Assembly: GCA_965207375.1 (NCBI GenBank)
Contig: OZ242274.1
Coordinates: 192,001 to 256,000, forward strand
Reading direction: 5' to 3'
From: Nitrosopumilaceae archaeon
Lineage (GTDB): Archaea > Thermoproteota > Nitrososphaeria > Nitrososphaerales > Nitrosopumilaceae
Length of the DNA stretch: 64,000 nucleotides
The position numbers and the translations under genes were made by a program. Under the pieces are notes generated by a model. That model was not told the origin of the DNA and did no database searches. It saw only the letters and a program-made list of their open reading frames with translations. Below are positions 2,610 through 22,953 of the stretch, in pieces; position 1 is the first letter of the stretch; each line of letters begins with the position of its first letter.

Positions 2610-2826
2610 GTTATTGGTTTTTATCTGAAAACTAAGCAATTTTCCCTAGTTTTGACCTGTATCATAACCACTGGGCGTGATTTTTTGCCATTTTAGGCGA
2701 TAAAGCCACAAAATGATTAACCACTAACCTGTTAACACCCTCTCAAGTGACGAACCAATAGTCCATTTGTCTTATATCCTACGTATTGTATCATTAATCT
2801 TGGATAACTTGCTTCTCAAAAGATGG

Positions 2827-3078: not shown

Positions 3079-3969
3079 TCAATCGGTAAAATAGTCATCA
3101 TCGACCTTTTTTACCTCAAAGGTGTCCCTTACATTCACGCCTAGATTATACTCGTACATGTATTCAGTCAGCATATTGCCGTTGATTAGGATGATTTTTG
3201 CATCGATGTTTTTTACAAAGTCGTATGTGTCACTTGAAAAGGTAGAGGATGTTATGAATATGCCTTTTTTTGATTTTTTACTTGACAGAGCCCCTACAAA
3301 ATCCCTTACCTGGTGTATTGGTACTGTATTTTGCCATCTTTTTGCCTGAAAGTATATCTCATCTAAGCCTAATTTGTCCTCCTTTACTACACCGTCTATT
3401 CCACCATCACCTGTTCTCCCTAGCACCTTATGATCAATTCCATATCCCATTTTTCTAATCAAATCTAGCACGAGTCTCTCAAAAAATTCCGGAGTGTTTT
3501 CGTTAATCTTTTCAAGTAGTTCGTTCTCAACTTCACTTCTAATGATTCCATGACCTGTACTTAGCATCTCCTCTGGAGTATATTCAACGGAGAGCGAAGA
3601 TTCTTCCTTGTGTTCCTTTCTTTTAGCTAACATGTTGGAGTGATATTGGTGATATTTTGGAATTGTCAGTAGGTATTTGCGGTCTATGCGTGCAGGTTTT
3701 CTTTTTAAGGTGTTCTGACCGTCCTCGGTTATAGAAATAATGTTTTTTGTCTTATCTACCAAACCTGCTTTTTTTAGATCAGCTATGACCCATCTAACTT
3801 TGTTTTGGAATAATGTTTCACGACCACGTTTTGTGAGTTGATTACGTTCCGCATCTGTCAGATCAAATTTTTCTTCAAGGGGTTTGATTAATTCACGTAG
3901 ATGAATGCTTTTTTTATTATCACAAATACTCAAAATTGATAATCCTAACTCCCAATATTTTGGACGCAT
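3079..3969 (-). CDS. mrr: Mrr-family type IV restriction endonuclease
   Basis: Mrr_N wHTH (FQNKVRW..ADLKKAGLV) and catalytic motifs FFERLVLDLIRKMGY, GDGGIDG, QAKRW, VRDFVGAL, KGIFITSSTFS. Confidence 0.93.
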   Translation of the reverse strand: MRPKYWELGLSILSICDNKKSIHLRELIKPLEEKFDLTDAERNQLTKRGRETLFQNKVRWVIADLKKAGLVDKTKNIISITEDGQNTLKRKPARIDRKYLLTIPKYHQYHSNMLAKRKEHKEESSLSVEYTPEEMLSTGHGIIRSEVENELLEKINENTPEFFERLVLDLIRKMGYGIDHKVLGRTGDGGIDGVVKEDKLGLDEIYFQAKRWQNTVPIHQVRDFVGALSSKKSKKGIFITSSTFSSDTYDFVKNIDAKIILINGNMLTEYMYEYNLGVNVRDTFEVKKVDDDYFTD

Positions 3970-5630: not shown

Positions 5631-7097
5631 CTATGGGCATGCTATGGGAACACCAGTATTATTAATGAAAGTAAAACATTCACTATTTATTTCACTTCCA
5701 TCTGGGTTTAGGTTCATGCGATGATAGATTCCATTCTTATCATGGTACACATGCCACCATAACTGTCCAGTATCGGGATCCCATGATTTACTTACATTAT
5801 TTCCATTCTCATCAGTGTAATGATGGACTGATAACAGTCCATTTGTATAATACTCTTTTTGTACTATTCCATTCTCATCACCATAAAGATGCTTCTTTAA
5901 CTGTCCAGTTTCATACCATTCTTTCACCCACGCACCATCAACTTTCCACCAGCCATCAGTATTTGTATAGTTATACCCATGAATATATAATTGACCGTTT
6001 TCATACCATTGTTTTTCTACTTGAACCCCGTCTGCATCTGTCCATTTGTGGTGTGTTATGGTTTGGGTTCCATTATCTTTTTGAAGATCATAAAAAGATA
6101 TTCGTAAATTATATTTACCATCTATTTCATCTACTGATTCAGATTCAACAACTGATTCAGATTCAACAACTGGTGGTAATGGTTCGTGTATCTGGCCTAT
6201 TGCGCCTGATATAGATTTATGTACAAATGGTTGTCCTTGCCACCAGTGATGTTCTGGTTCCTTAGTCTCTCGTGCTGTTCCAGTAGGCAATATAGGCAAC
6301 ATTTCCCACATTTGGATTTTATCAAAGCCTTGCGGATGTTGTTCTACAATCAATAATAAAGAGTCATTACAATAACGTTCGTAACTATCACATATTGGAT
6401 GGCTCCAAGATTGTTCTATGTTAAATTGTATCTCATAAAACCCTGTCCGTTGATCAGGATAAACCGTCTGATTTACAACTATGCCAAGTCCACGATTCAT
6501 CGGAGCCGATTTGCTGTCCGTATATGATGTAAAACCGTAATTAGTACTATCCAACCGGTAATCATCTGTTACAATTATTGTAACCGGTGCATTTGATGTT
6601 GACGAGCCGTTTATGACCACTAATGATTCACCTGCTATTGTATTGATTGTTGTATTCAATAGATGTACTCTTCTATCAGATTCAATACTGGCGTCCTTGA
6701 TTTGTAGTTTCTCTTTCTTATTGTCAATGTTAGTATCTTTTCTGTCAATCTTGCTATTCTTTCTGTCAATTGCTTCCTCGAGTTTTACAATCTTGTTTTC
6801 TAATTTGTCAATCTTTGCATTTTTGTTGTCTAATTTAGATTCTAGTTTTTCAATTTTATTTTCAGTTTGGTTGTTTTTAGCTTTTAGTTTATCTCTTAAT
6901 TCTGCAATCTTTACATTTTTGTTCTGTTTATCTTCTTTTAGTTCTGTAATCTTAGTTTCTAGTCCTGTAATCGTTGCCTCTAGTTCTGCAATTTTAGCCT
7001 CTAACTCTGCAATAAGATCTGGATTTGCATAGACTACAGAACTTGATAATAGAGTAATTGAAAGTAATGCTATAATGGTAATGTGTAAAGTCTGCAC
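5631..7097 (-). CDS. secreted coiled-coil protein with C-terminal MORN2/YwqK-like repeats (paralog 1)
   Basis: Signal peptide MQTLHITIIALL...VVYA; K/E/N heptad coiled coil; repeats WYENGQL, WYETGQL, YYTNGLL. Confidence 0.8.
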   Translation of the reverse strand: MQTLHITIIALLSITLLSSSVVYANPDLIAELEAKIAELEATITGLETKITELKEDKQNKNVKIAELRDKLKAKNNQTENKIEKLESKLDNKNAKIDKLENKIVKLEEAIDRKNSKIDRKDTNIDNKKEKLQIKDASIESDRRVHLLNTTINTIAGESLVVINGSSTSNAPVTIIVTDDYRLDSTNYGFTSYTDSKSAPMNRGLGIVVNQTVYPDQRTGFYEIQFNIEQSWSHPICDSYERYCNDSLLLIVEQHPQGFDKIQMWEMLPILPTGTARETKEPEHHWWQGQPFVHKSISGAIGQIHEPLPPVVESESVVESESVDEIDGKYNLRISFYDLQKDNGTQTITHHKWTDADGVQVEKQWYENGQLYIHGYNYTNTDGWWKVDGAWVKEWYETGQLKKHLYGDENGIVQKEYYTNGLLSVHHYTDENGNNVSKSWDPDTGQLWWHVYHDKNGIYHRMNLNPDGSEINSECFTFINNTGVPIACP

Positions 7098-7146
7098 TGG
7101 CTTTAGGCAGGATTGTGAGTTATTAAATCAATCTGTCTGGTTCTTA

Positions 7147-7226
7147 CCTGCATGATATTTCATACATTCACAAATTACGGATATTGACTTTTGATTAGAC
7201 TTGGTATGTTAAAAAATTTGTTGATT
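7147..7226. repeat. 80-bp conserved 3' element, copy 1
   Basis: 79/80 identical to 8896-8975; its right ~40 bp recur at 42961-43002; lies just after the stop of 7229..8530. Confidence 0.85.
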
Positions 7227-7228
7227 TA

Positions 7229-8530
7229 TCAAGTTGTGTTGTGTTGTAATATTTGTCCGTCTTGATTCCATGCTATGTTATATGTTCTAAATCCAATATC
7301 ATACAATACATCATGTGTTAATCCATAAATATTGTGACTTGCCAGCTGCCCGTTTTCATGCCAATGATAATACATTTGCATATGAGGCAAGTCTGCTTGA
7401 GTGTATCCATCCCTAACGCCACCATGTTCGTCATACCAACTCATTTGCATTTGATATTCGCCCTCTATGTACCAATAATCTCGTATCTGTCCATTTTCAT
7501 ACCAAGTATAACTCACTTGATGTCCATTTTCATCAAAATGGGTGAGACTCTGCATTTGTCTATTTTCAAACCACATTTTCTTCACCCAATGTTCATTTGT
7601 ATCATAATAACTGTAACTAAATACAGTACCGTTGGTATGGTAATAGCATTCGTATGTATCGGCAGGACATTGAGTAGGTCTTGGTTCTCCTAGCATATTT
7701 GTTGGTATGCCGTTATGTTGTATGTATACGGTACTATTCATGGTTATTTGTTGTGGGTTTGTTGTTGTTGGTATGATTTGTTGTGGGTTTGTTGTTGGGT
7801 TAACATCACGTTTAGGTATTGGTTTAGGTTCTGGATTCAATTGTGTTTTCATCTCGTCTATTATTTTTTGTTTATTCTCAACTTTCTCTTGTTTATTGGC
7901 AATCTTTCTATCCACCTTTTCTTTCAGATGATCAATCTTTGCATTTTTTTTGTCAAGTGCAGCTTCTAGTTCTGCAATCTTTGTATTTTTCTTTTCTAAT
8001 TTAGCTTCTAGTTTTACATCTTGATTTTCAGTTTGGTTGTTTTTAGCTTTTAGTTTATCTCTTAACTCGTCAATCTTTGTATTTTTGTTTTGTTTATCTT
8101 CTTTTAGTTCTGCAATCTTTGCCTCTTGTTCTGTTACCTGTGATTCAAGTGTGGTAATCTTTGAGGTTAACTCACTTGTATCAGTTGTACTTTTTTGTGA
8201 TTCAAGATATTTTACCCTAGTTTCAAGAGTTAAAATTTGATTATTCTGAACTGAAATTATATCACTTAATTTGGCTGCATTATCAACATACCTCTGAATA
8301 GATTCTTGTAGCTGAGTATTTCGGTGTTCAAATTGTGCTACGGTGTTATTCATTGTTGTAAGATCAGATTTTGCCTTGTTAAAATCTTGAACTAGAGCCT
8401 GATATTGCGCCATTACTGAATCATAGTTTACCTTCCAATCAATATCAGGAACTACATCATGTGCATAAGCTGTACCTGTTGATATTCCAATTGCTAGAAC
8501 TGCAATTATAGTATAGTGTAAAGTCTTCAC
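7229..8530 (-). CDS. secreted coiled-coil protein with MORN2/YwqK-like repeats (paralog 2)
   Basis: MKTLHYTIIAVLAIGISTGTAYA signal; shares ELKEDKQNKN.KI.ELRDKLKAKNNQTEN with paralog 1; WYENGQ and WHENGQ repeats. Confidence 0.8.
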   Translation of the reverse strand: MKTLHYTIIAVLAIGISTGTAYAHDVVPDIDWKVNYDSVMAQYQALVQDFNKAKSDLTTMNNTVAQFEHRNTQLQESIQRYVDNAAKLSDIISVQNNQILTLETRVKYLESQKSTTDTSELTSKITTLESQVTEQEAKIAELKEDKQNKNTKIDELRDKLKAKNNQTENQDVKLEAKLEKKNTKIAELEAALDKKNAKIDHLKEKVDRKIANKQEKVENKQKIIDEMKTQLNPEPKPIPKRDVNPTTNPQQIIPTTTNPQQITMNSTVYIQHNGIPTNMLGEPRPTQCPADTYECYYHTNGTVFSYSYYDTNEHWVKKMWFENRQMQSLTHFDENGHQVSYTWYENGQIRDYWYIEGEYQMQMSWYDEHGGVRDGYTQADLPHMQMYYHWHENGQLASHNIYGLTHDVLYDIGFRTYNIAWNQDGQILQHNTT

Positions 8531-8895
8531 TAGCTACGAACAAATTTCAGGATTATTAAATCAGTCGATCAAATAGCATTCCCACTTTTCATGCATCTTG
8601 AGCAGTTTCTTATCTAGGATATGCTTTTCATGCGTGATACAATATGCCATGATTATAGTTACTACAAAATGACATAAAAAATTAATGTTTTAGTCTCAAA
8701 TTTGATAATTCTAACTTATCCCATCTTTGACCATATAGTTAACCAGACTGCAAAGCAAAGCATTCCAGCAGTATTTAGTATCATTTGTATTTTTATGGCC
8801 TTGTTTGGGTCTATCATTGTTTTACCTCTAGTTTTAGTTTTGGGCTAACCTGACGATCTATCCTTGGTTCAGAAGGATTGTATGGTTTCTGCTTG

Positions 8896-8975
8896 CCTGC
8901 ATGATATTCCATACATTCACAAATTACGGATATTGACTTTTGATTAGACTTGGTATGTTAAAAAATTTGTTGATT
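8896..8975. repeat. 80-bp conserved 3' element, copy 2
   Basis: 79/80 identical to 7147-7226; overlaps the TAA of 8974..9510. Confidence 0.85.
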
Positions 8976-9510
8976 AGGGATCAACTAGGTCAGGTAACTC
9001 ATTACATACACCATTAGACAAACGGTATGGTTTATCTGTAGGACAATTAGGATCAATGTCCCAATTAAGCCTAAGAGGTTCAGGACTTGTCCAGCAATCG
9101 CCATCAGATCGAAGATATGGATAACCAGCAAAACATCCATCAATTAAAGTAAAATCCTCATGATAAAACATGGCATAATCGTAATAATCTGAACGCTGTG
9201 CAATTGACTCAATTTCTGCCCTTATGTCATAATATTGACTATATGTAGAATGTGTTATAAAATCCACACATGTTTCCTCTGTAATATATTCAGAAAGAGT
9301 TTGAGATTTAATTCCTACTGGACTAAGTGCAAATTCAAAAGGACTTTCATAGGCCAAGTCTGTCATTGTATGCAAAGCCTCAATATGATCCTTGACTTTT
9401 TCTTCACATTCCCAATCGACATGCGAATATGTGTTAATAATAAAACTACTCAAAAATCCTGCACCTGCAATCGCAAAAAGAATGATACTGATTTTAATGG
9501 TTATGTGCAT
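8974..9510 (-). CDS. membrane-anchored hypothetical protein with two C-terminal Cys repeats
   Basis: N-terminal TM; C...PYLRSDGDC and C...PYRLSNGVC repeats; 15 bp downstream of 9526..10569. Confidence 0.65.
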   Translation of the reverse strand: MHITIKISIILFAIAGAGFLSSFIINTYSHVDWECEEKVKDHIEALHTMTDLAYESPFEFALSPVGIKSQTLSEYITEETCVDFITHSTYSQYYDIRAEIESIAQRSDYYDYAMFYHEDFTLIDGCFAGYPYLRSDGDCWTSPEPLRLNWDIDPNCPTDKPYRLSNGVCNELPDLVDP

Positions 9511-9525
9511 TAGTTAGAACGCTCA

Positions 9526-10569
9526 TTAACAGAAATATTGTTTTTCATTTTCATCATAACAAAAATGTGAACGGACAGAACCATCATCAAAATAAGTTGT
9601 GTGTGTTGTAGGTTTACCGTGTTGATCATACATAGTCATAGCCCACGCATACCTATTTGAAGGACCGTCATAATGTGATTTTTTAGGTTCACATGAACCA
9701 CTGTATGGGTAATAACATTCAGTAGTAGCTTGGCCAGGTTGGTCATAGAATGTATTCTGTTTATATACAGTACCGCCCGTTGTCCATTTGGTAACTGATT
9801 CCCATCTTCCACTTTCATAATACACTATTGTTATAGTAGGTGATTGTGTAGGGTCATGACTGCCCCAATAAGTCGATTTAGATTTTGTTTTACCACTATC
9901 ATAATAGGAATAACAGATCATTCCCCAATCACGAGCGCCGCCTGTAAACTTATCACCGTAAGGGACACATTTTTCATCTGGATTTGGCGGGATCCATTTT
10001 GTTGGTATTTGAACCGTCTGGTTTTTTGATTCAATCTCACTCATTTGAGCCTTCATATTGTTAATCTTGTTATTTTTCCTATCAACTTTCTTTTCTAATT
10101 TTTCAATGGTCTCTTTTTGTTCTGCAATAGTGTTTTTCAATTTGGCAATCTTTTCATTCTTGTTATCCACTTTGGTGTTCTTAGCCTCTAGTTTCTCTTT
10201 TAATTTCTCCAGATAAGATACATCTGAAAAACTGCTATGACTTAGTAAGGGCAATCCTAACATCTTTTCAATCTCGGTCTCAATGTACAAGTGCCTATTT
10301 TCATAGGCTACAAAGTCCAAAATTCCCTCTTTATACTCTAAAGCCAGTTCTGTATATGCTGCCTTTTTGGCCTCATCTGTAGTTAAACCATCAAAATGAT
10401 CTGCATATTGTTGATAAATTGAGTTACGATAAACCTCATCAGAGGCAAAACGATCCCGTTCATTTAATGCAGATTGAAGATTTGCATAATAATCCGTAGT
10501 AGCATAAACTGTGCCTGTTGATATTCCAATTGCCAAAACTACAATAATTGTAATGTGTAAAGTCTTCAC
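9526..10569 (-). CDS. secreted coiled-coil protein with MORN2/YwqK-like repeats (paralog 3)
   Basis: MKTLHITIIVVLAIGISTGTVYA signal; coiled coil; YYDSGK, YYESGR, YFDDGS repeats. Confidence 0.8.
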   Translation of the reverse strand: MKTLHITIIVVLAIGISTGTVYATTDYYANLQSALNERDRFASDEVYRNSIYQQYADHFDGLTTDEAKKAAYTELALEYKEGILDFVAYENRHLYIETEIEKMLGLPLLSHSSFSDVSYLEKLKEKLEAKNTKVDNKNEKIAKLKNTIAEQKETIEKLEKKVDRKNNKINNMKAQMSEIESKNQTVQIPTKWIPPNPDEKCVPYGDKFTGGARDWGMICYSYYDSGKTKSKSTYWGSHDPTQSPTITIVYYESGRWESVTKWTTGGTVYKQNTFYDQPGQATTECYYPYSGSCEPKKSHYDGPSNRYAWAMTMYDQHGKPTTHTTYFDDGSVRSHFCYDENEKQYFC

Positions 10570-10927
10570 TAGATTTTGATAAAAAAGAGTATAATTAAAC
10601 GGTTCTATGATCCTTCTGTGGTCCAGGATAGATTATGTACTGCCTGCATCCTGCCTACAGTTTCCCATTTTACTGTCATACAAACATGTCTTGGATTTTT
10701 AATACCATGATAGGTATAGGTTTGTGCCTTGTTTACGGCCATGTATATCCTTAATGAGGATTATTAATAAGACTGCCGTATATCGCACAATTTGTAGGGC
10801 ATTGCAGGCACTTGTCAAGTATTAGACTTGGATTGTCTTGTAAAAATATGCTTGCCCATCAAAAGAATATTTCTCCCATTACATCATGATGTGTCGACTT
10901 TATCATGATATATTAAAACTAAACTGT

Positions 10928-11020
10928 AGGCTAAGTCTATACGCTTGGGTCATTTGGGTCCGTAAACCAAAATTCATGGTTAGCAGGGTTATCGTCATCT
11001 GTTTCGACATGCAGTGCAGT
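10928..11020 (-). pseudogene. orphan 3' end of a second terminase large-subunit gene
   Basis: Reads TALHVETDDDNPANHEFWFTDPNDPSV* versus TerL VAIKVQTDEDNPANHEFWFTDPNDPSV*; 10928-10972 is identical to 11848-11892 (45 bp). Confidence 0.85.
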
Positions 11021-11043
11021 ATGTACGTGCAGTCAGATCTTGG

Positions 11044-11109
11044 TTACTTGTTCATCTCGTACTTAATTTTTCAATCATTACACCTGGGCACAAATTAACT
11101 CTATTACGT
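11044..11109. mobile_element. degenerate, truncated copy of the 82-bp MITE (inverted relative to 17412-17493)
   Basis: TACTTGTTCATCTCGTACTTAATTTTTCAATCATTAC...CACAAATTAACTCTATTACGT aligns with the reverse complement of 17412-17493; followed by a 15-bp tandem duplication (11105-11134). Confidence 0.7.
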
Positions 11110-11160
11110 TAAAGCTAAATACGTTAAAGCTAAATTAGGTCATGACAACCTGCAAACAAG

Positions 11161-11511
11161 TTGGCACTTGAATTACCTAAATCACCTGATGTTCCTGAAT
11201 TACACCGTGAACCAATTAAACAACAAGCATGGTACTTACAGATTAAAGATGAAATTCCTAACAGTAAAAGACCAATAGATAAAATGTCTATTGCTGAAAT
11301 TTTAGAAATGTATCAAAACAATGACTTTGTTTGTGACGATTGCGGTTCCAAAATGGGAAAAATGAACTGCACATTAAAGGAGCATATTGCACATGTGATT
11401 AATCCTATAGTTCATTGGAGTTGTGAGGACTGTATTATACAAGCCATACGAAATGGTAGAGTAATAGCATCCACTGCAACCACAGACAAATGGAAATTAT
11501 CCAATCGTTGA
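11161..11511 (+). CDS. Zn-binding hypothetical protein
   Basis: CDDC...CEDC motifs; TTG start. Confidence 0.6.
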   Translation: MALELPKSPDVPELHREPIKQQAWYLQIKDEIPNSKRPIDKMSIAEILEMYQNNDFVCDDCGSKMGKMNCTLKEHIAHVINPIVHWSCEDCIIQAIRNGRVIASTATTDKWKLSNR

Positions 11512-11555
11512 AATTTTGATCTACGTATATAACGTGTAGATGCAGTGTATGTTAC

Positions 11556-11810
11556 ATGATTGAATATGAAATAACATGTGTCAGAAAAGATGATGAAAAA
11601 ATAACTCATGTGAAATTTGACGACAAAGTTCGTGAGGTTAGAGAAGCAGTTGAAGGGCTGCAGGCTAAAAAATATTCCCTCTACACATACAAAGATAAAC
11701 AAAAAGTATCTGTTGAGCCACAACGGTCAAAAGTAAATGGTACTTGGTTTTTGACCACAGAACCAGACAATACTAAAGAAAACAACTTGGGCTTTTTACC
11801 TAATTGTTAA
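11556..11810 (+). CDS. DUF3892-family protein
   Basis: ITCVRK...ITHV...FLTTEPDNTKENNLGFLP pattern typical of DUF3892. Confidence 0.75.
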   Translation: MIEYEITCVRKDDEKITHVKFDDKVREVREAVEGLQAKKYSLYTYKDKQKVSVEPQRSKVNGTWFLTTEPDNTKENNLGFLPNC

Positions 11811-11856
11811 TTTTTTTTCTTTTACATTTGCCAGTCATAAATCAAACAGGCTAAGT

Positions 11857-13413
11857 CTATACGCTTGGGTCATTTGGGTCCGTAAACCAAAACTCGTGAT
11901 TTGCAGGATTATCTTCGTCTGTTTGAACCTTTATCGCTACGGCAAGGAAAACTAGAGACATTAGGAAATCATCATTTCTGTTTGGCATTAAGGAAAAGCG
12001 TAATACTGTATTGCCTCCGGACTTTGTTACTATATGGGATTCCTCTGCCGTTAGATGTTCTATACTCCATTCTGTATCTGCGTTCAATGGTATAGTTATT
12101 TTAGAATTTTGCCAATCCTCAAACCAGGATATTACCTTTTGAACAAAATTGGATTTATCAACTGAAACTTGGTCTTGTTCCTCAATCTTGCTATAGTTTA
12201 TGATATTGGCAGGGTTTTCGCCTAAAGACACTTTGATTACCTTGTTGGCAGATTCTAGGATTTGTAATGCTCCTGTATTTCCTCCTATATCCGCATAGGT
12301 ATAATCAGGTTTGTAATAGTCTATTATCGTTTTTACCTTATCGCCTAGTTCCTGCACGTTTGAATCATTGTACCTGTGGATTGAAACAATTTTGATTTTA
12401 TAATCTTGTTGTTTGATTTGTTCTTCTGTACCTATTACCTGCGCTAATGTAACTACCGTAAAAGCGTCGCCTCCGCTTGCCCAATCAATGCAGGCGTATA
12501 GTTTGGATTCTTCTGATTTTTCTATTTCGGCAGGCTGTAATAATCTTATATCGTCTTTGTAAGATTCTTTTACTAAACTATAAGGCAATGGGATTTTAGC
12601 ACCTACCGAAAATCTTCCCAATACTTCAAAATCAAATTTAGATTGCAGGTAGGTCTTGCGTTTATGCTCTATTTCTTCTTTGGTAATATTGGGCATCATT
12701 AGTTGGTTTATTGCATATCCGTGGTTTATGCCCGTTGGATTTTGGTTTACCCACTGTTTCCCATTCCATTCGGCTTGAGTGGTACTTTGATAATATCTGT
12801 GCCAAGCCGATCCTTCGTATGCTCCGGTTCCTGTGACGATTAGTTTGCCATGTTTAGATTGTGCCATTGCTTCTATAAGGTTGGGCAAACCGTCTAAATC
12901 CGTGTCTTGGCATTCGTCTAAATAGCAAAAGTCCGCGTCTATTGAACGGGCTTGCTTGAACTCCGAATATCCGGATAAAATGTATAATGTTGAGCCATTG
13001 GGAAAGTAATACCTTGAGATAATCTTATCCTTTGTATCTGTCGGTAAGGGGGTTTTATCCAATATATGATTGAGTTTATCCTGTGAAAATATCCTAACCT
13101 TATCAATACTAGAAGTTACGTAAATATGATTAGTATATGGATAAAGTAGGGCATTATGGACTATTTTGGCGATAATATAGGTAGTCATCCCGACCTGCCG
13201 CCCTTTTCGGATTACTATAATTTTTGATTCGTCTTGGCATATATCGTGTAACCATTCCCTACCTTCAAACGAATATTGGCCGTTGCGTAGGGTGATAAAC
13301 TCCTTTAGGAATTTTGTAAAAACCCGTGATATTTCTATTTGATTACCGCTTGCAGGGATTGATTTCTCAATCTCTGATAACAACGGGGTTTGTCGCGTCT
13401 TGATTTTTGCCAT
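11857..13413 (-). CDS. terL: terminase large subunit (ATPase + RNase H-like nuclease)
   Basis: Walker A-like IRKGRQVGMTT, Walker B FCYLDECQD, motif III TGTG, nuclease ACIDWASGGD and C-terminal NDDFLMSL. Confidence 0.85.
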   Translation of the reverse strand: MAKIKTRQTPLLSEIEKSIPASGNQIEISRVFTKFLKEFITLRNGQYSFEGREWLHDICQDESKIIVIRKGRQVGMTTYIIAKIVHNALLYPYTNHIYVTSSIDKVRIFSQDKLNHILDKTPLPTDTKDKIISRYYFPNGSTLYILSGYSEFKQARSIDADFCYLDECQDTDLDGLPNLIEAMAQSKHGKLIVTGTGAYEGSAWHRYYQSTTQAEWNGKQWVNQNPTGINHGYAINQLMMPNITKEEIEHKRKTYLQSKFDFEVLGRFSVGAKIPLPYSLVKESYKDDIRLLQPAEIEKSEESKLYACIDWASGGDAFTVVTLAQVIGTEEQIKQQDYKIKIVSIHRYNDSNVQELGDKVKTIIDYYKPDYTYADIGGNTGALQILESANKVIKVSLGENPANIINYSKIEEQDQVSVDKSNFVQKVISWFEDWQNSKITIPLNADTEWSIEHLTAEESHIVTKSGGNTVLRFSLMPNRNDDFLMSLVFLAVAIKVQTDEDNPANHEFWFTDPNDPSV

Positions 13414-13807
13414 TGATCGTATCCCTGAATACCATTAGTAACGGTAATGATTCCATTAAGAATCTTAGTGAATCTTCTGTATTGTTGATTGTGTCTGCTA
13501 TTGCCGCTTTGGTTCTAGGTTGTGGACATTCCCTTAATGTTTCTTCTAGGTGCTGAATCCGTTGTTTCTTCTGCAAAGCCATTGTCCTAATCGTTTCTAA
13601 ATAGCCTGCCTTGGCTTGGTCATTAATCCATTCGTCGTTAGTTTCTCTTAGCCTTTTCAAATATCGATATATGGCATTCCTTGATATTTTCGTACCCTTT
13701 GATCTTAGTATTTTTTGAATCTCTGTAGGGGATAACGTTCCCTGAGTATAAACTACATCCCGCACGGCATTAAATTTTTCAACTGTTGTCTTTCTCATGC
13801 TTGACAT
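13367..13807 (-). CDS. putative terminase small subunit (HTH + coiled coil)
   Basis: HTH SPTEIQKIL...ISRNAIYRYLK followed by a coiled coil; immediately upstream of and overlapping terL. Confidence 0.65.
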   Translation of the reverse strand: MSSMRKTTVEKFNAVRDVVYTQGTLSPTEIQKILRSKGTKISRNAIYRYLKRLRETNDEWINDQAKAGYLETIRTMALQKKQRIQHLEETLRECPQPRTKAAIADTINNTEDSLRFLMESLPLLMVFRDTINGKNQDATNPVVIRD

Positions 13808-14059
13808 GATACAATTAATATTGACACGATATATAACAACTAACTTTTGTGTTCCAAAAAGGCATTAATGGTGTTCCAAAAACGATTAAAAATTGTTGAA
13901 AAGTGATAAAAAAAGGTTCAAGGTAGATTGGTAGGCGTATATCCGCGTCCAGACCACAGAATGCCTGTTTGTTGTAGTGTGATGAGGGCTGCAATGTCAG
14001 GGTCAGACGAGATATTGCCAAATTCGTTGAAAAAAGACGGAGCATCATTGGAAATACAT

Positions 14060-15141
14060 AGAGGTGATCCGTAATTATTTTTTATGCGTGCCTACTGCCA
14101 TCCAGATGCCCTGTTTCAGTCAGGCCATCTGATCTAACCGCCACAATATGCTGCGGTTTACCAAACCGCACACAATATCATTGATCCGGTCGTATTTTAT
14201 GAGTGGATTCCTGTATACGTTTCCCATAATACGCCATGTTTTGACCCTGCGTATTGCATGTTCTACATATACACGAATCTTTGAGTGGATTTTGTTGTAT
14301 TCTTTTTGCCCTTCTGTGAGCTTTGCACCCTTTTTCTTTTTGATTGGGGTGCACAGTGTCCCTCCGGGAACCTCAGGTGCCCCTTGGTATCCTCTGTCTG
14401 CATATATGGTGACCTGTGCTTCATCAGGTATTTTCTCTGGAAATGTTGGAGGTTTTTTCTTGTATACTGTAACGTCATGTACTTTTCCGGGTGAATGACG
14501 TGTCTTGTGCACGATTAGTCCATGCGTGTTAGTCGTATATTGTATCTTAGAGGTGTGCGCTCCTGCCTTGCCAGAATAGTGAGATTTTTCCATGTCTTTG
14601 CGTTCGGGCCTTTGTATTTCCTGTTCTGAGGCATCAACAAGACATCTGAGACCTGGAAGAATCTCTTCTAATTCCTCAATGGAGGAAATTCTCTTCATCT
14701 GGTCGTGTATCTTGGTAGGTATTGGAATGCATAGTTTGAGGATGGGCTCTATATGTGTAATAGAGCGCGATACTGATGCTTGTCCTATTTCAAACATGAC
14801 TGCTGCTACATCTTGTGTGCAGTATGTACGATAGTAAAACAAAAGTAGCATCACCTGGTCTCGTACATTTAATGCGAATCTGCGGCCTGCACCTATTGCG
14901 CGCACTCTGTTTTCTCTAGAGAGTCTCTTTTTTTCTGCTCTTGGATACTTTTTTTCCACCTTAGATACTAACAAATCAAATTCTTTGGCAGACATGCCTG
15001 TTATGGCACGAAATCTTCTGGTATTTTTTACCAGTTTTTCATAGGACATCATGAGTTGTGGTAGATTCGGGTGATATTTGGATCTTTTTGGTATTGCTAG
15101 GCGTGAAATTTAGGGAAATTTGCTAATTACGAATCACATCT
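14060..15141 (-). mobile_element. IS5-family (DDE_Tnp_4-type) insertion sequence, 1082 bp
   Basis: TIRs AGAGGTGATCCGTAATTA / reverse complement AGATGTGATTCGTAATTA (16/18); 3-bp TSD CAT (14057-14059, 15142-15144). Confidence 0.85.
14120..15052 (-). CDS. IS5-family transposase
   Basis: FRAITGMS.KEF, LVDASEQ, YSGK, ADRGYQG, R.YVEHAIRRVK motifs. Confidence 0.9.
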   Translation of the reverse strand: MMSYEKLVKNTRRFRAITGMSAKEFDLLVSKVEKKYPRAEKKRLSRENRVRAIGAGRRFALNVRDQVMLLLFYYRTYCTQDVAAVMFEIGQASVSRSITHIEPILKLCIPIPTKIHDQMKRISSIEELEEILPGLRCLVDASEQEIQRPERKDMEKSHYSGKAGAHTSKIQYTTNTHGLIVHKTRHSPGKVHDVTVYKKKPPTFPEKIPDEAQVTIYADRGYQGAPEVPGGTLCTPIKKKKGAKLTEGQKEYNKIHSKIRVYVEHAIRRVKTWRIMGNVYRNPLIKYDRINDIVCGLVNRSILWRLDQMA

Positions 15142-15224
15142 CATTATTATCTCTAGTCATAATCGGAAAGCCTAGGTCCAAGGTAGGGAAAAGTCTGGTA
15201 AAAAGGTTCAAAGGCGGCAAAACA

Positions 15225-16127
15225 TTATAGTTTTGCATCGTCTGAGAACAGTGATTCTGCAAACTCTTGTTTAACTGTCTTTTTTGTGGTTTTAATCTTC
15301 TCGAACCTGTCCACTGTAGTTCCGTTAGGCATAGGCTTGGTATAATATCTCAGCATCGTATCATTAAACTCTTCAATCTCCAACTCTACGTCTTTCTTTG
15401 AGAATTTTGTTCGTATCTTGTCGATATGCAGGTGATAGTGATACAATATCCATCTTTTAACGTCAGGCAGTAGATAATGTCCAGACGTAACGGAAAGATG
15501 ATCTGAAATTTTACCCAAAATGACGCATAAACCAAGTATTCCATAATAATCATGAATTATGGGATGACGGCTGTTTGTAATGTGGATTTGGATAGTTTTT
15601 GGATATATGACTGCCTTTACAGGTACATCAAGGTCACTTACCGGTATTTGTATCTGGATGGAACTGTTTTCAGGATGTGGTTCTCTCCCTCTTTCAACTA
15701 GCATCCGGTGCAGATTAGGATCATGGAAGCGTACTGCAATGTCATGAATCTTCAAGGCGTAGCCATGCAAGCCTTCTAGGTATTGATGTAACGGATTAGA
15801 CCCTACCCCCGTGGGCTCATGTGTTACGGGTTTTTGATAATATGGCATGTCAATTCCCTTGAGTTTGTACCAAGTAGGCTTACCTTTTTGCTCGATTTCA
15901 ATATAGTTTATGCATTTATGTACCCTTTGCCTGAATAGAGGGGCAGAATAGCCAAGTTCTTTAAAAACAATGGAGGTAAATGCACACTTTTCTCGCTTGA
16001 CAAAATCATAACAGTGACGCAAAAATTCCCTGTTTTTCTTTGTAAGTTTACCATGTGGGCAACTGTTAAGCCAATCTGTGAATCCAAGTGTTACAAAATC
16101 ATCTGGTTCAGGTCGCTTGGCACTCAA
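15225..16127 (-). CDS. putative replication initiator (N-terminal wHTH, Rep_trans-like C-terminus)
   Basis: YHYHLHID and LRYYTK...RFE resemble the Rep_trans RxDxAxD and IRIYNK...RxE motifs; located in a virus-like operon. Inferred from motifs only. Confidence 0.45.
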   Translation of the reverse strand: MSAKRPEPDDFVTLGFTDWLNSCPHGKLTKKNREFLRHCYDFVKREKCAFTSIVFKELGYSAPLFRQRVHKCINYIEIEQKGKPTWYKLKGIDMPYYQKPVTHEPTGVGSNPLHQYLEGLHGYALKIHDIAVRFHDPNLHRMLVERGREPHPENSSIQIQIPVSDLDVPVKAVIYPKTIQIHITNSRHPIIHDYYGILGLCVILGKISDHLSVTSGHYLLPDVKRWILYHYHLHIDKIRTKFSKKDVELEIEEFNDTMLRYYTKPMPNGTTVDRFEKIKTTKKTVKQEFAESLFSDDAKL

Positions 16128-16202
16128 TTTAGAAAACCTCGCTTTTGAAAAATTTGAAGATGTTTAGAATACTATAGGAATGGTTGTTTTGTGTAGCGCA
16201 GA

Positions 16203-16352
16203 TCATGATAACTTAACCTCTGTAATTACGTGGCGTAATGGGTTATCTGCATAACATTTCTTACATAGTTCGAGTTCGTAATTGCCTCCAGACCCACCGT
16301 CTAGAATAACCTTGACAAATTTTTTTGTTTTGCACTTACAATGGTAATTCAA
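16203..16352 (-). CDS. small Zn-finger protein (49 aa)
   Basis: TTG start overlaps the upstream stop; NYHCKCKTKK...LELCKKCY. Confidence 0.55.
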   Translation of the reverse strand: MNYHCKCKTKKFVKVILDGGSGGNYELELCKKCYADNPLRHVITEVKLS

Positions 16353-16480
16353 TGTTTTTGTGCCTCCCAACATTCAAGTAATCGAAGTAGAATCTGTTCA
16401 AAACTATCGCCTTTTGCACCTAACAGAGCGATCTTGTCTTTGGTTTCTTTTGATAAAGACATTGTAGTAATTTTTGCCAT
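16349..16480 (-). CDS. ribbon-helix-helix DNA-binding protein (43 aa)
   Basis: MAKITTMSLSKETKDKIALLGAKGDSFEQILLRLLE matches the archaeal plasmid/virus RHH pattern TTIx(I/L)SxETKxxL...GES(Y/F)xx(I/V)IxRL. Confidence 0.7.
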   Translation of the reverse strand: MAKITTMSLSKETKDKIALLGAKGDSFEQILLRLLECWEAQKH

Positions 16481-16508
16481 ATGGATAATTACACGAATTA
16501 ATCATATA

Positions 16509-16533
16509 TAGTGTAGTGAACTACACTAGTGTA
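16509..16533. promoter_or_regulatory. overlapping palindromes between divergent genes (candidate operator)
   Basis: TAGTGTAGT-GA-ACTACACTA (16509-16528) and TACACTAGTGTA (16522-16533), directly after a TATATA box. Confidence 0.55.
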
Positions 16534-17327
16534 TGATCAATAGACGAAAAATAATAAGAGATAATTATGGTAAAGAAAAAAACCCCAAGGAATTGATAAC
16601 AAGTTTTCTTGGACGTAATGAAAAGATGACATTTGGAGAAATAAAAAAAGAATTAAAGAACATGGACATCAGTTATGCAGACAATAAAGGATTGGATCTA
16701 GTTCTAAAGGCATTGATTGAAGACCATGTAATCAAAAAGCGTCCAGCAAAACCGTATCCACTATACTATCTGACCAACAAAGCAATCACAAACATTGACT
16801 GGATTGCAGATGAGTTTAAGCGAGAAATAGCAGGTAGGATTCTAAATCACCCTCATCAGCCAATGCTTATAACAGAAACAGAAGAGAGTCATAAAATACG
16901 AGACTTGATTCTGATTTATGGAGTGTACATGATGTATGTTCAGATTCAAAGCTGGAATATCGTAAATCCAAAGAAGAGTTCAAAATACAATCATGATGCT
17001 AGACGCTCATGGTTCATACATACAATTCTACATAACAACGAATCGCTCTTATTTGAAAAGATGATTACTAGGCTTTGTAATTGGGGTTTGGATCTTAGCG
17101 ATGAGGAATATGATGAGAAGAGGGCAATGATATATGAAAGTAAGAAGAAATTAAAAAAATTCAAAGAGATAGAAAAGACTTTCAAATTACAATACAAGCC
17201 ATATTATGATTTTTTTGATAAAGTGTACCAAAAGGCTCCAAAAGGTGCTAGAGGAGCACGAGACTGGATAAAAGAAATGCAAAGAAAAGAACGCACAAAG
17301 AAAAGACGTGAAGGTAAAAGGAAATAA
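16533..17327 (+). CDS. winged-helix protein (putative regulator)
   Basis: N-terminal wHTH (MTFGEIKKEL...LDLVLKALIEDHVIKK...PLYYLT); divergent from the RHH-rep operon. Confidence 0.6.
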   Translation: MINRRKIIRDNYGKEKNPKELITSFLGRNEKMTFGEIKKELKNMDISYADNKGLDLVLKALIEDHVIKKRPAKPYPLYYLTNKAITNIDWIADEFKREIAGRILNHPHQPMLITETEESHKIRDLILIYGVYMMYVQIQSWNIVNPKKSSKYNHDARRSWFIHTILHNNESLLFEKMITRLCNWGLDLSDEEYDEKRAMIYESKKKLKKFKEIEKTFKLQYKPYYDFFDKVYQKAPKGARGARDWIKEMQRKERTKKRREGKRK

Positions 17328-17411
17328 TATTGTAGATATGTATTAGATACTATACGTTATTGAATAATCTCAAATCTTATGATTCTAGACTAGACCAGAA
17401 ATAGGTATTTG

Positions 17412-17493
17412 GTACTTGTTCACGTAATCGAGTTAATTTGTGGCCAGATTGTGATGTAATGATTGACAAATTAGGTACGAGGTGAACAAGTAC
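17412..17493. mobile_element. 82-bp MITE with the termini of the IS66 at 62038-63532
   Basis: Ends GTACTTGTTCACGT and AGGTGAACAAGTAC match the two 14-bp ends of that IS exactly; no TSD. Confidence 0.8.
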
Positions 17494-17808
17494 ACTATTC
17501 TTTTTACATTTGTATTGACACAAGACCTAGACTCTACTAGGCGTGAATCTGAGCCATATCTGACTAAAATCCTCCCTTTTACCCCAAGACACACTTCATT
17601 TTTGACAGGAATCCCACTAGACCCGCTTGATCTTTCCAAAAAGTCCGAAAAACTCGCTACAAAAAAGACACCTGGAGAGATTAATTCAGAATCAACCCGC
17701 ACTCTGAAGAAAAACCAAAAAGACGCTGCCAAAAAGCCAGTACAAAATGGCACCGTCAATGTGGCTAAAAATCCAAAAGATACAAAAGCAAATTATGCTG
17801 TAATTGAA

Positions 17809-17880
17809 GAAATTTTAGGCACGGGCAATCCAGAGAAAATTTGCATATTGACTTTGTCCAACAGATAAAGCAGAAGAATC
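17809..17880. repeat. 72-bp inverted repeat, left arm
   Basis: Reverse complement matches 23840-23911 at 68/72. Confidence 0.85.
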
Positions 17881-17994
17881 CGCAAAACAATTTATTTTTA
17901 TAATACTCTGTTGCATTATAACCATCGTCTATACTTGAATCCTTAGTGTGAGCAGTTTGCCGACTTCTAAGGCTCATGTGAGTATAGGCGTTTT

Positions 17995-18578: not shown

Positions 18579-18630
18579 CTAATATCAAACGATTCTAGAT
18601 TTGAAAACGTAAACAAAATCTCGATAACTG

Positions 18631-20702: not shown

Positions 20703-20707
20703 GTTTT

Positions 20708-22222: not shown

Positions 22223-22235
22223 TTTACAGAATTGC

Positions 22236-22952: not shown

Positions 22953-22953
22953 T

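What the first reader, a model, noticed from the sequence alone, without database searches (positions are those of the whole stretch)
10928..17493. Capsid-less mini-element: TerS + TerL + Rep_trans-like protein + switch (candidate archaeal virus satellite)
Seen: one leftward module, RHH (16349-16480) > Zn-finger > 300-aa protein with LRYYTK...RFE > non-coding gap with IS5 > HTH TerS > intact TerL, plus a divergent wHTH gene. No portal, capsid, tail or integrase gene lies in or next to it; TerL is followed by oppositely oriented small genes. Known: in tailed viruses terL is normally followed by the portal gene; bacterial satellites such as PICIs often carry terS and borrow helper virions; Rep_trans proteins use the Tyr of an IRIYNK motif for rolling-circle initiation. 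Inference: a ~5.5-kb (IS removed) replicon that makes concatemers and brings its own packaging motor to hijack a helper head-tail virus.
Basis: partly seen in the sequence, partly recalled or inferred. Interest (0 to 1): 0.75.

Follow-up and report, generated by a model that had tools for sequence, protein, structure and literature searches.

The report
Terminase-carrying, capsid-less archaeal integrative element
A sponge-associated ammonia-oxidising archaeon carries a 36.6-kb mobile element in a tRNA-Lys gene that has its own DNA-packaging motor and a rolling-circle-type replication starter but no recognisable virus shell genes, so it may borrow another virus's capsids or be a decaying virus remnant.

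Summary
The genes are there as described: RHH, Zn-ribbon, 300-aa protein, IS5, TerS candidate, intact TerL and a divergent 264-aa gene. TerL is certain (phrog_675, E 2.9e-51).

The 300-aa protein has a winged-helix domain plus a TBP-like domain. It keeps the Rep_trans pattern D…D…R-x-Y-x-K…E across its family, so the Rep_trans-like guess is supported by fold and motifs. It matches neither the Rep_trans nor the DUF7845 Pfam profile.

The proposed 5.5-kb replicon is not supported. Its flanking inverted repeat is a dispersed genomic repeat. The module is the right end of a 36.6-kb island in tRNA-Lys. A 20-nt tRNA 3' core occurs only twice in the genome, and a tyrosine-type integrase sits at the far end. 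The rest is defence and adhesin-like cargo, with no virion gene found by Pfam or PHROGs.

TerS–TerL pairs without virion genes recur in Nitrosopumilaceae: 16 of 18 loci examined, one with the same Rep–small ORF–TerL order. One published case exists (NitKor-E1, called enigmatic).

A satellite-like lifestyle is plausible (about 0.4), and a relic is nearly as likely. The closest relatives lie on 27–42-kb contigs I could not read.

The parts
1..2639 (-). 3' part of a 2949-aa secreted adhesin-like gene (whole gene G000 C1:185790-194639). Island cargo.
   Evidence: ORF map. fn3, Big_9, He_PIG, PKD and ANF_receptor domains in the part that was scanned.
3079..3969 (-). Mrr-type restriction endonuclease. 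Island cargo.
   Evidence: Mrr_cat E 6.5e-33, Mrr_N E 1.5e-17.
5631..10569 (-). Three paralogous secreted coiled-coil genes (5631-7097, 7229-8530, 9526-10569) and a 178-aa secreted ORF (8974-9510). Island cargo, not virion genes.
   Evidence: Only coiled-coil-type hits in Pfam and PHROGs. Paralogs exist elsewhere on C1.
10928..11020 (-). Fragment of a second terL: the last 27 codons, the stop and a few bases beyond.
   Evidence: 77-nt direct repeat of 11848-11924 at 91% identity. tblastn gives 81% over 27 aa. The nucleotide differences leave an 18-residue stretch unchanged.
11045..11112 (.). Copy of a dispersed ~80-nt genomic repeat. This is the left arm of the apparent inverted repeat.
   Evidence: About 25 further copies, all on C1. 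No Rfam match.
11161..11511 (+). 116-aa Zn-ribbon-like ORF, convergent with terL.
   Evidence: Weak Zn-ribbon Pfam hits only. Contigs about 95% alike exist in another study's run.
11556..11810 (+). DUF3892 gene (84 aa), convergent with terL.
   Evidence: PF13031 E 2.6e-10. phrog_8224 E 7e-8.
11857..13413 (-). Large terminase subunit (TerL), 518 aa, intact.
   Evidence: phrog_675 E 2.9e-51. The Walker A, Walker B and nuclease Asp positions are invariant in alignment A1 and kept in 15-16 of 16 family sequences.
13367..13807 (-). Small terminase (TerS) candidate, 146 aa.
   Evidence: Lies directly upstream of TerL and overlaps it. The AF2 model shows an N-terminal three-helix HTH-like unit plus a long helical hairpin. 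The best full-length Foldseek rows are phage G20c and P74-26 TerS, but with E 0.44-0.8. PHROG TerS families at E 0.015-0.055. A homolog lies on a contig of the same length (19816) as a TerL homolog's contig.
14057..15144 (-). IS5-family insertion sequence in the Rep-TerS spacer.
   Evidence: DDE_Tnp_4 and HTH_Tnp_4. Eight further full-length copies at 95.5-98.2% identity. Contigs of other copies break off at 14060 and 15141.
15225..16127 (-). p300: predicted rolling-circle replication initiator. N-terminal winged helix (about residues 12-93) plus C-terminal TBP-like, Rep_trans-like catalytic domain (about 115-290).
   Evidence: AF2 pLDDT 82.5. Foldseek: TBP E 2.6e-4, RepSTK1 4cij E 2.4e-3. VIA-align: TBP Z 7.7, RepDE 4cwc Z 6.3. 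Conserved D129, D236, R260-x-Y262-x-K264 and E276. Atlas neighbours carry Rep_trans.
16203..16373 (-). 56-aa ORF with four Cys (Zn-ribbon-like).
   Evidence: Sequence only. No family hit.
16349..16480 (-). 43-aa RHH-like first gene of the leftward operon.
   Evidence: DUF7557 E 0.009. Homologs at 52-53% identity lie upstream of p300 relatives in 2 of 26 metagenome loci.
16509..16528 (.). Perfect 8+8 palindrome between the divergent genes. Candidate operator.
   Evidence: Hairpin scan of the 52-nt spacer. The function is inferred.
16533..17327 (+). Divergent 264-aa gene. Presumed regulator; its wHTH nature was not verified.
   Evidence: ORF. No Pfam or PHROG family.
17419..17492 (.). Second copy of the dispersed repeat, in the opposite orientation.
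   Evidence: 29 further hits on C1.
17594..17628 (+). attR: the 20-nt tRNA-Lys 3'-end core (17609-17628), preceded by a 14-nt stretch that follows the core at attL.
   Evidence: The 20-mer occurs exactly twice in the 4.3-Mb genome, at C1:173014 (in tRNA-Lys) and C1:209609. Partner features lie outside the window: tRNA-Lys at C1:172957-173031 and the integrase-like ORF at C1:173074-174393.

Best explanation
The finding is the regulation, replication and packaging end of one 36.6-kb integrative element (about 35.5 kb without the IS5) inserted in the 3' end of a tRNA-Lys gene. The element runs from G000 C1:173014 to window 17628.

Its far end encodes a tyrosine-type integrase. Its middle is cargo: a HaeIII-type restriction-modification pair, SNF2/NOV_C, Mrr, a 2949-aa adhesin-like protein and secreted coiled-coil proteins.

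Its right end encodes a switch (RHH and Zn-ribbon genes facing a divergent 264-aa gene across a palindrome), a Rep_trans-like rolling-circle initiator (p300), a small terminase candidate and an intact large terminase. No virion gene is recognisable.

Most likely way of working, all of it inferred:
1. The integrase excises the element.
2. p300 nicks an origin through Tyr262 and drives rolling-circle synthesis that yields concatemers.
3. TerS and TerL cut the concatemers and pump them into procapsids supplied by a head-tail helper virus.

That would make it a satellite-like element. The same class includes the published terminase-only element NitKor-E1 and many TerS-TerL loci in Nitrosopumilaceae. 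This copy carries an IS5 in the Rep-TerS spacer and may be impaired.
For: Shown:
- TerL is real and its catalytic positions are intact.
- att repeats: the 20-nt tRNA-Lys core occurs only twice in the genome, 36.6 kb apart and in direct orientation. The integrase-like ORF lies 43 nt after the tRNA.
- That integrase is 32% identical (E about 1e-56) to integrases that sit directly upstream of p300 relatives in two relatives' genomes and in 6 of 26 metagenome loci, two of them near-identical contigs. Integrase and p300 therefore belong to one element type.
- p300 has a wHTH plus a TBP-like fold with matches to RepSTK1 and RepDE.
- In the p300 family, Y262 is kept in 59/60, K264 in 57/60, R260 in 50/60, E276 in 59/60, D236 in 60/60 and D129 in 54/60. 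RepDE has D46, D142, R189, Y191, K193 and E214 in the same order (PMC4797284 passages).
- Atlas neighbours carry Rep_trans.
- No virion family was found in the island ORFs that were scanned. PF05065 and PF04860 gave no hit genome-wide.

Recurrence in the family:
- The TerL profile hits 50 of 401 Nitrosopumilaceae genomes.
- Of 18 loci mapped, all have a small co-directional ORF before TerL, and 15 have an intact TerL.
- 16 have host or defence genes rather than a morphogenetic train after TerL.
- One (G241) repeats the order p300 - small ORF - TerL, at 32% and 26% identity. One (G217) has MCM - small ORFs - TerL - RM.
- In G286 and G381 the cassette sits at the same site, with flanks 90-97% identical. 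TerL is 65% and TerS 39% identical there, which argues against inert relics.
Against: - No helper virus, excised circle or packaged form was seen.
- The element is about as large as the 34-40-kb contigs that carry the closest TerL and p300 relatives, unlike classical small satellites. Those contigs could be complete viruses from which this module is a leftover.
- An IS5 sits between rep and terS. A second terL 3' fragment and dispersed repeats show past rearrangement at the terL end.
- Virion proteins of this lineage escape Pfam and PHROGs even where a virion-like gene train exists (G088). Absence by HMM is therefore weak, although gene sizes, signal peptides and orientations of the island genes do not fit a head-tail module.
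- The TerS assignment rests on position and a non-significant fold match.
- The fold matches of p300 (Z 6-8) are in the range the tool warns can reflect a common arrangement.
- The island could be composite.
Confidence: 0.4

Rival explanations
1. Relic. A ~35-40-kb temperate head-tail virus integrated at tRNA-Lys. Its morphogenetic genes downstream of terL were later lost or replaced by host-like cargo through recombination. The switch-rep-terS-terL block and the integrase are what is left and have no present function.
For: - The closest TerL relatives (35-78% identity) lie on contigs of 27-42 kb, many of 38-40 kb. p300 relatives lie on contigs of the same lengths as TerL contigs (33919 and 39848).
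- The island has a similar length.
- Rearrangement scars lie exactly at the terL 3' end: a terL fragment and a dispersed repeat.
- An IS5 sits in the operon.
- The neighbourhood is rich in IS and defence genes.
- The published view of NitKor-E1 is 'likely a relic' (PMC6563490, section 10).
- 3 of 18 family TerL genes are split or truncated.
Against: - Every gene of the module and the integrase are open, and the att cores are identical.
- TerL keeps all catalytic positions.
- The same 'terminase without virion genes' state recurs in 16 of 18 loci, including an independent Rep-small ORF-TerL triad.
- Divergent cassettes occupy one chromosomal site in two genomes. Independent decay to the same end state is unlikely.
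Confidence: 0.3
2. Retained terminase. The TerS-TerL pair is kept because it benefits the element or the host without moving the element. Examples: interference with infecting tailed viruses by competing for procapsids or cutting their concatemers, or packaging DNA for a gene-transfer-agent-like system encoded elsewhere.
For: - In many family genomes TerS-TerL sits among housekeeping genes with no integrase or rep nearby: aldehyde dehydrogenase, FEN1, glycosyltransferase, EPSP synthase.
- Catalytic residues are conserved.
- Cassette variants are swapped at a fixed site, as in defence hot spots.
- The island is loaded with defence genes.
- GTA-like head-tail loci have been proposed for Thaumarchaeota (PMC6563490, section 10).
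Against: - No known defence family matched. The PADLOC library was not searched.
- In this window the pair is in an operon-like row with a replication initiator and a switch, next to an att site. That fits a mobile life cycle better.
- No capsid locus was found in this genome.
Confidence: 0.15
3. Nested mini-element. The ~5.5-6.5-kb block is an autonomous small satellite that happens to lie at the end of an unrelated tRNA-Lys island.
For: - In G241 the p300 - small ORF - TerL block with a divergent upstream ORF occupies only about 5-6 kb between host genes (EPSP synthase on one side).
- Zn116/DUF3892, p300 and the 264-aa gene have close relatives in another study's run that has almost no cover (bin depths up to 0.73) on the terS-terL stretch at 85% likeness or more.
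Against: - No repeats bound the block. The apparent terminal inverted repeat is a dispersed repeat.
- The only att-like repeat pairs the block's right side with the tRNA 36.6 kb away.
- The island integrase belongs to the family that accompanies p300 elsewhere.
Confidence: 0.1

Closest known systems
NitKor-E1 of Ca. Nitrosopumilus koreensis AR1, a cryptic integrated element (Krupovic et al. 2019, PMC6563490; section 10 read in full)
   Same: An integrated element in a Nitrosopumilaceae genome. TerS lies directly upstream of TerL and these are the only Caudovirales-like genes. It also has a tyrosine integrase and a restriction endonuclease.
   Different: - Here a predicted rolling-circle initiator and a switch precede terS-terL.
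- The att sites in tRNA-Lys are defined.
- The cargo differs (no VapBC seen).
- Whether the two TerL proteins are close relatives was not tested, because the genomes searched are unnamed.
- The paper's supporting annotation file could not be seen.
Phage-inducible chromosomal islands and related bacterial phage satellites (PICI, cf-PICI, P4; recalled knowledge, plus listings)
   Same: Integrase, switch, own replication initiator and own packaging specificity gene(s). They have few or no virion genes and often carry defence cargo.
   Different: - Classical PICIs carry terS but not terL and are much smaller than the helper genome.
- cf-PICIs carry terL together with capsid genes.
- This element has terS and terL without capsid genes and is about as large as the related 34-40-kb contigs.
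- It is in the archaeal domain, and no helper is known.
Rep_trans initiators RepD/RepDE and RepSTK1 (PF02486; PMC4797284, passages read)
   Same: TBP-like beta-sheet catalytic domain. R-x-Y-x-K around the tyrosine. Three conserved acidic residues in the same order along the chain. A separate DNA-binding domain.
   Different: - No sequence-profile match: PF02486 gave no hit at E up to 10.
- The winged helix is N-terminal.
- Spacing between the motifs is shorter.
- The hosts are archaeal elements.
Rep-Arvir / RepSNJ2 (DUF7845, PF25227; PMC13107129; abstract, sections 26 and 28 and passages read)
   Same: An archaeal initiator with a TBP-like, Rep_trans-like catalytic domain plus a wHTH. It is genetically linked to an integrase across the att site of a temperate element.
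   Different: - No PF25227 match at E up to 10, while the control genome was positive.
- The domain order is reversed: wHTH first, catalytic domain last.
- The protein is shorter (300 aa).
- The paper's text does not mention Nitrososphaeria or terminases. Its supplementary tables could not be seen.

Membership tests
Large terminase (TerL; Terminase_6N, phrog_675) | Significant profile match to TerL families | tested here: met
   phrog_675 E 2.9e-51, phrog_2 E 3.1e-22. PF03237 at 30.5 bits, above the 22-bit cut-off.
Large terminase (TerL; Terminase_6N, phrog_675) | Walker A and Walker B ATPase motifs and RNase H-like nuclease aspartates are present | tested here: met
   K70, R72, Q73, D166, E167, D310, D375, D481 and D482 are invariant in A1 and kept in 15-16 of 16 family sequences. 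Naming these positions as Walker or nuclease motifs is from general knowledge.
Small terminase (TerS) | Small gene directly upstream of, and coupled to, terL | tested here: met
   47-nt overlap with terL. A small co-directional ORF precedes TerL in 18 of 18 family loci.
Small terminase (TerS) | Significant sequence or fold similarity to known TerS (HTH plus oligomerisation helices) | tested here: inconclusive
   The AF2 model has an HTH-like N-terminus plus a helical hairpin (pLDDT 75.9). The top full-length Foldseek rows are TerS of phages G20c and P74-26, at E 0.44-0.8. PHROG TerS families at E 0.015-0.055.
Rep_trans (PF02486) | Match to the Pfam profile | tested here: not met
   No hit for p300 at E up to 1. 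0 of 60 family members hit it. No hit in the whole genome at E up to 10, with the control positive.
Rep_trans (PF02486) | Catalytic domain built on a TBP-like extended beta-sheet | tested here: met
   Foldseek: TBP E 2.6e-4, RepSTK1 4cij E 2.4e-3. VIA-align: TBP Z 7.7 (133 aligned), RepDE 4cwc Z 6.3 (142 aligned). These Z values are moderate.
Rep_trans (PF02486) | Catalytic Tyr flanked by Arg and Lys (R-x-Y-x-K), plus three metal-binding carboxylates on separate strands | tested here: met
   R260 in 50/60, Y262 in 59/60, K264 in 57/60, D129 in 54/60, D236 in 60/60, E276 in 59/60. They lie on different predicted strands.
Rep_trans (PF02486) | Nicking-joining activity with a covalent Tyr-DNA link | not testable with these tools
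   Needs biochemistry.
Rep-Arvir (DUF7845, PF25227) | Match to PF25227 | tested here: not met
   No hit in G000 at E up to 10. Haloferax control positive.
Rep-Arvir (DUF7845, PF25227) | N-terminal catalytic domain followed by a central wHTH | tested here: not met
   In p300 the wHTH is N-terminal (residues 12-93) and the TBP-like domain is C-terminal (115-290).
Phage/virus satellite (PICI-like) | Integrase and att sites | tested here: met
   Met at the scale of the 36.6-kb island, not of the 6.5-kb finding.
Phage/virus satellite (PICI-like) | Own replication initiator and own packaging gene(s), with no complete virion module | tested here: met
   p300, TerS candidate and TerL are present. No virion family in the island ORFs scanned. 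Absence by HMM is weak evidence in this lineage.
Phage/virus satellite (PICI-like) | Induction by, and packaging into particles of, a helper virus | not testable with these tools
   No helper identified. Needs particle-fraction sequencing or culture work.
Terminase-only integrated element (NitKor-E1 type) | TerS-TerL are the only Caudovirales-like genes in an integrase-bearing integrated element | tested here: met
   Definition from PMC6563490, section 10.
Terminase-only integrated element (NitKor-E1 type) | TerL orthologous to that of NitKor-E1 | not tested
Defective head-tail provirus | Remnants of portal, capsid or tail genes beside terL | tested here: not met
   None found by Pfam or PHROGs in the island. 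The proteins of the one virion-like train in the family (G088) have no tblastn match in G000.
IS5 family | DDE_Tnp_4 transposase, with multiple near-identical copies | tested here: met

The most novel reading that the evidence does not exclude
Nitrosopumilaceae host a whole class of capsid-less mobile elements that carry their own small and large terminase. Some also carry a replication initiator: here a new, third family of TBP-fold, Rep_trans-like rolling-circle proteins. They spread by loading themselves into the procapsids of head-tail helper viruses. This would be the first satellites of archaeal tailed viruses, and a satellite type (terS + terL, no capsid) not described in bacteria. The TerS-TerL cassettes swapped at fixed chromosomal sites would be the minimal form of the same parasite.
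Probability: 0.3. Interest if true: 0.85.

Novelty: new variant of a known kind. Interest (0 to 1): 0.62.

Why it matters
Terminases are regarded as hallmarks of complete tailed viruses. The one published thaumarchaeal element with terminase genes only was left as an enigma.

This window gives a better-defined case:
- exact att sites and an integrase;
- a switch;
- a predicted rolling-circle initiator directly ahead of terS-terL.

The family survey suggests the state is common and conserved rather than accidental. If these elements are packaged by helper viruses, marine and symbiotic ammonia oxidisers would have a satellite layer of gene transfer that carries defence and adhesin cargo.

Independently, p300 extends the Rep_trans-like, TBP-fold initiators to Nitrososphaeria, with a different domain order. 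That makes an unannotated family of 135 protein clusters (representatives at 50% identity) interpretable.

Tried and rejected
- Close TerL relatives were sought and not found in GTDB species genomes by pattern scan, in JGI metagenome contigs or in GenBank phages (best 26%). IMG/VR gave only 21-25% relatives.
- p300 gave nothing in GenBank phages or IMG/VR.
Only contig lengths were compared.
- PDB sequence-profile search with the p300 family gave nothing meaningful, best E 0.26.
- Empty-site comparison failed. Same-genus genomes are only about 65-70% identical in DNA, and the right flank is not syntenic.
- Reads: only assembled contigs were available. No joint linking the att sites or the module ends was seen. 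The two 'opposite strand' joints fall in dispersed repeats. This says nothing about rare excised forms.
- No RNA holder was listed among the sequencing runs.
- Rfam: no family in 10500-18300 at E up to 0.1.
- tRNA-Arg near the G241 triad: no att-like repeat found.
- dN/dS among family TerL genes: synonymous sites are saturated. Only 3 pairs were computable (0.10-0.20), so this is weak.
- Rejected: the 68-nt inverted repeat as element termini.
- Rejected: the coiled-coil genes as head proteins. The phrog_10 hit covers a coiled-coil stretch only.
- The PADLOC library and complex prediction were not used.

Full report
**What is in the stated interval**

- a 43-aa RHH-like ORF (16349-16480);
- a 56-aa four-Cys ORF (16203-16373);
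- a 300-aa ORF (15225-16127);
- an IS5-type transposase (14120-15052);
- a 146-aa ORF (13367-13807);
- a 518-aa ORF (11857-13413);
- a divergent 264-aa ORF (16533-17327).

The 518-aa protein is a large terminase: phrog_675 E 2.9e-51 and Terminase_6N above the Pfam cut-off. It is the only full copy in the 4.3-Mb genome. The positions I take, from general knowledge, to be Walker A, Walker B and the nuclease aspartates are invariant among its 13 closest relatives.

The IS is one of nine full-length copies in the genome, the others at 95.5-98.2% identity.

The 146-aa protein overlaps the terL start by 47 nt. Its model has an HTH-like N-terminus and a long helical hairpin. Its best full-length Foldseek rows are small terminases of phages G20c and P74-26, but at E 0.44-0.8. 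TerS is therefore an inference from position and architecture.

**The edges are not what they seemed**

- The 77-nt repeat at 10928-11004 copies the 3' end of terL at 91% identity. At protein level the match runs over 27 codons. The nucleotide differences leave 18 consecutive residues unchanged. It is therefore a piece of a second, related terL that diverged under selection, not a terminal repeat.
- The 68-nt 'inverted repeat' (11045-11112 and 17419-17492) belongs to a dispersed repeat with about 25-29 further copies, all on contig C1. It has no Rfam match.

**The real element**

A tRNA-Lys gene lies 19 kb left of the window (G000 C1:172957-173031). It is followed after 43 nt by a 439-aa ORF. 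That ORF is 32% identical to tyrosine integrases of relatives, and those relatives match Phage_integrase.

The last 18 nt of the tRNA plus two bases recur at window 17609-17628. This 20-mer, and even its first 14 nt, occurs nowhere else in the genome. A 14-nt stretch that follows the core at the tRNA lies just before the core at the right end.

The module therefore forms the right end of a 36.6-kb island integrated in tRNA-Lys. The finding's right edge falls 116 nt short of the att core.

Between integrase and module lie:
- a HaeIII-type endonuclease with a D12 methylase;
- SNF2 and NOV_C proteins;
- three small paralogous basic proteins;
- a 2949-aa protein with fn3, Ig-like and ANF_receptor domains;
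- Mrr;
- three secreted coiled-coil paralogs.

None of the island ORFs scanned matches a virion family. PF05065 and PF04860 find nothing in the genome.

Absence by HMM is weak evidence in this lineage. In the one family locus with a virion-like gene train (G088), those proteins also have no Pfam or PHROG match. Still, the sizes, signal peptides and orientations of the island genes do not fit a head-tail module.

**The 300-aa protein (p300)**

It has no Pfam or PHROG family. It belongs to a family of 135 clusters (representatives at 50% identity) at E up to 1e-3. Of the 60 members I aligned, none hits Rep_trans or any common family.

The AlphaFold model (pLDDT 82.5) has two domains:
- a winged helix at residues 12-93 (TFE-alpha Z 8.4);
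- a pseudo-twofold alpha/beta domain at 115-290.

The second domain matches TATA-binding proteins (Foldseek E 2.6e-4; VIA-align Z 7.7). It also matches the Rep_trans initiators RepSTK1 (4cij, E 2.4e-3) and RepDE (4cwc, Z 6.3 over 142 residues). These Z values are moderate.

The structure paper on Rep_trans notes the same likeness to TBP. It names D46, D142 and E214 as metal ligands and R189, Y191 and K193 at the active site (PMC4797284, passages).

The p300 family keeps D129 (54/60), D236 (60/60), R260 (50/60), Y262 (59/60), K264 (57/60) and E276 (59/60), in that same order. The ESM Atlas neighbours of residues 110-300 are clusters in which 22-34% of members carry Rep_trans.

A 2026 paper describes Rep-Arvir (DUF7845) as an archaeal TBP-fold relative of Rep_trans, linked to an integrase operon (PMC13107129; abstract, sections 26 and 28 and passages). 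p300 does not match PF25227 or PF02486 even at E 10, and its domain order is reversed. I read it as a further family of the same superfamily, not as a member of either.

**Context of p300 relatives**

- In G014 and G025 a p300 relative follows a tyrosine integrase directly.
- The same holds in 6 of 26 metagenome loci, two of them near-identical contigs. Many of the other loci are too short to tell.
- Cargo there includes type I and Eco57I-type restriction-modification genes.
- None of these loci has a TerL by the A1 profile or by tblastn with the window's TerL.
- An RHH homolog precedes p300 in 2 loci.

Integrase and p300 are thus the core of a family of integrative elements. In the circular form of the present island they would be neighbours across the att site.

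**Context of TerL relatives**

The closest relatives (35-78% identity) are known only from assemblies I could not read. Their contigs measure 27-42 kb, and many are 38-40 kb.

Two p300 relatives lie on contigs of exactly the lengths of two TerL contigs (33919 and 39848). One TerS relative lies on a contig of the length of another TerL contig (19816). These genes therefore travel together on replicons or fragments about the size of this island. Whether those carry virion genes is unknown.

In named-less species genomes of the family, the TerL profile hits 50 of 401 genomes, 24 of 63 in one genus. Five unpublished genomes are included in these counts.

I fetched 18 loci of the ~520-aa clade from 17 published genomes. 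I chose those on the longer contigs and left out the unpublished ones. Results:
- All 18 have a small co-directional ORF before TerL.
- 15 have an intact TerL. Three are split or truncated.
- One (G088) has a virion-like train after TerL.
- One is cut by the contig end.
- 16 have host genes (aldehyde dehydrogenase, FEN1, glycosyltransferase, EPSP synthase, MFS, metallo-beta-lactamase), surface-protein genes or defence genes instead.
- G241 repeats the order divergent ORF | p300 relative - 75-aa ORF - TerL, within about 5-6 kb.
- G217 has MCM - small ORFs - TerL - RM.

The catalytic positions are kept in 15-16 of 16 sequences.

In G286 and G381 the cassette occupies the same site, between genes that are 90-97% identical. 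Yet TerL is 65% and TerS 39% identical. The cassette is therefore exchanged or fast-evolving, not an inert fossil.

**Comparison with the literature**

The literature I could search has one such case, NitKor-E1. It is described as TerS and TerL only, with integrase, VapBC and an endonuclease, 'enigmatic' and 'likely a relic' (PMC6563490, section 10).

Searches for archaeal terminase-bearing satellites returned only that paper and work on satellites of spindle-shaped viruses (bioRxiv 10.1101/2025.02.15.638363, passages). Those of PMC6563490 and PMC13107129 may list relatives of p300 or of this TerL.

**Reading**

The anatomy is shown by the calls above. The mechanism below is inferred.
1. The integrase excises the element at the tRNA-Lys cores.
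2. The switch controls the operon. It consists of the RHH and Zn-ribbon genes facing the 264-aa gene, with a perfect 8+8 palindrome at 16509-16528 between them.
3. p300 nicks an origin and makes concatemers. The origin is perhaps among the direct repeats in the rep-terS spacer, now split by the IS5.
4. TerS and TerL load the concatemers into capsids made by a helper virus.

I give this 0.4. A relic of a 35-40-kb provirus is nearly as likely (0.3). It is favoured by the size match, the IS5 and the scars at the terL end. A retained terminase used for interference or gene transfer (0.15) and a nested mini-satellite (0.1) remain open.

Noticed in passing
window 11045-11112 and 17419-17492; about 25-29 further sites on G000 contig C1: A dispersed ~80-nt repeat found only on contig C1. 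It has no Rfam match, and its nature (MITE, regulatory or RNA element) is unknown.
   Followed up: partly
window 17782-17868: A second dispersed repeat. The last 28 codons of a doubtful 128-aa ORF recur at 13 other places on C1.
   Followed up: no
G000 contigs C1 versus C2-C4: All IS5 copies and both dispersed repeats hit C1 only. C1 has GC 0.382, against 0.367-0.369 for C2-C4. Yet the assembly is rated 99.95% complete with 0.06% contamination.
   Followed up: no
L127 (G286) and L138 (G381): A TerS-TerL cassette sits at the same chromosomal site in two genomes. Flanking host genes are 90-97% identical, TerL is 65% and TerS 39% identical. This suggests cassette exchange at a hot spot.
   Followed up: partly
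window 15619-16421, in sequencing runs X1, X3 and X4; related contigs also in X5: A variant about 88% identical to the p300-Zn56-RHH stretch is present at a depth similar to the host's, although the genome has one copy. It could be a second strain or a free element in the same samples.
   Followed up: no
window 18213-25529: Right of attR lie a truncated paralog of a multi-copy 191-aa gene family, a NifS-like cysteine desulfurase, 191-aa and 504-aa genes, two ParB-like genes and an IS66 transposase. This may be a DNA-modification or defence cluster.
   Followed up: no
L094 (G001:C50) 879-1440: A same-genus genome has an integrase fragment right after its tRNA-Lys. The site is therefore a recurrent integration target.
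   Followed up: no
window 50223-50312: ARAGORN reports a 90-nt tRNA with an undetermined identity and a four-base anticodon. It may be an intron-bearing tRNA.
   Followed up: no
window 13849-13921 and 15188-15211: Short direct repeats lie in the rep-terS spacer on both sides of the IS5 insertion. They are candidate origin or pac repeats.
   Followed up: no
L139 (G088:C201) 8070-16929: This is the only family locus with a co-directional gene train after TerL (462, 115, 754 ... 604 aa). It looks like a genuine provirus, yet its proteins have no Pfam or PHROG match.
   Followed up: partly
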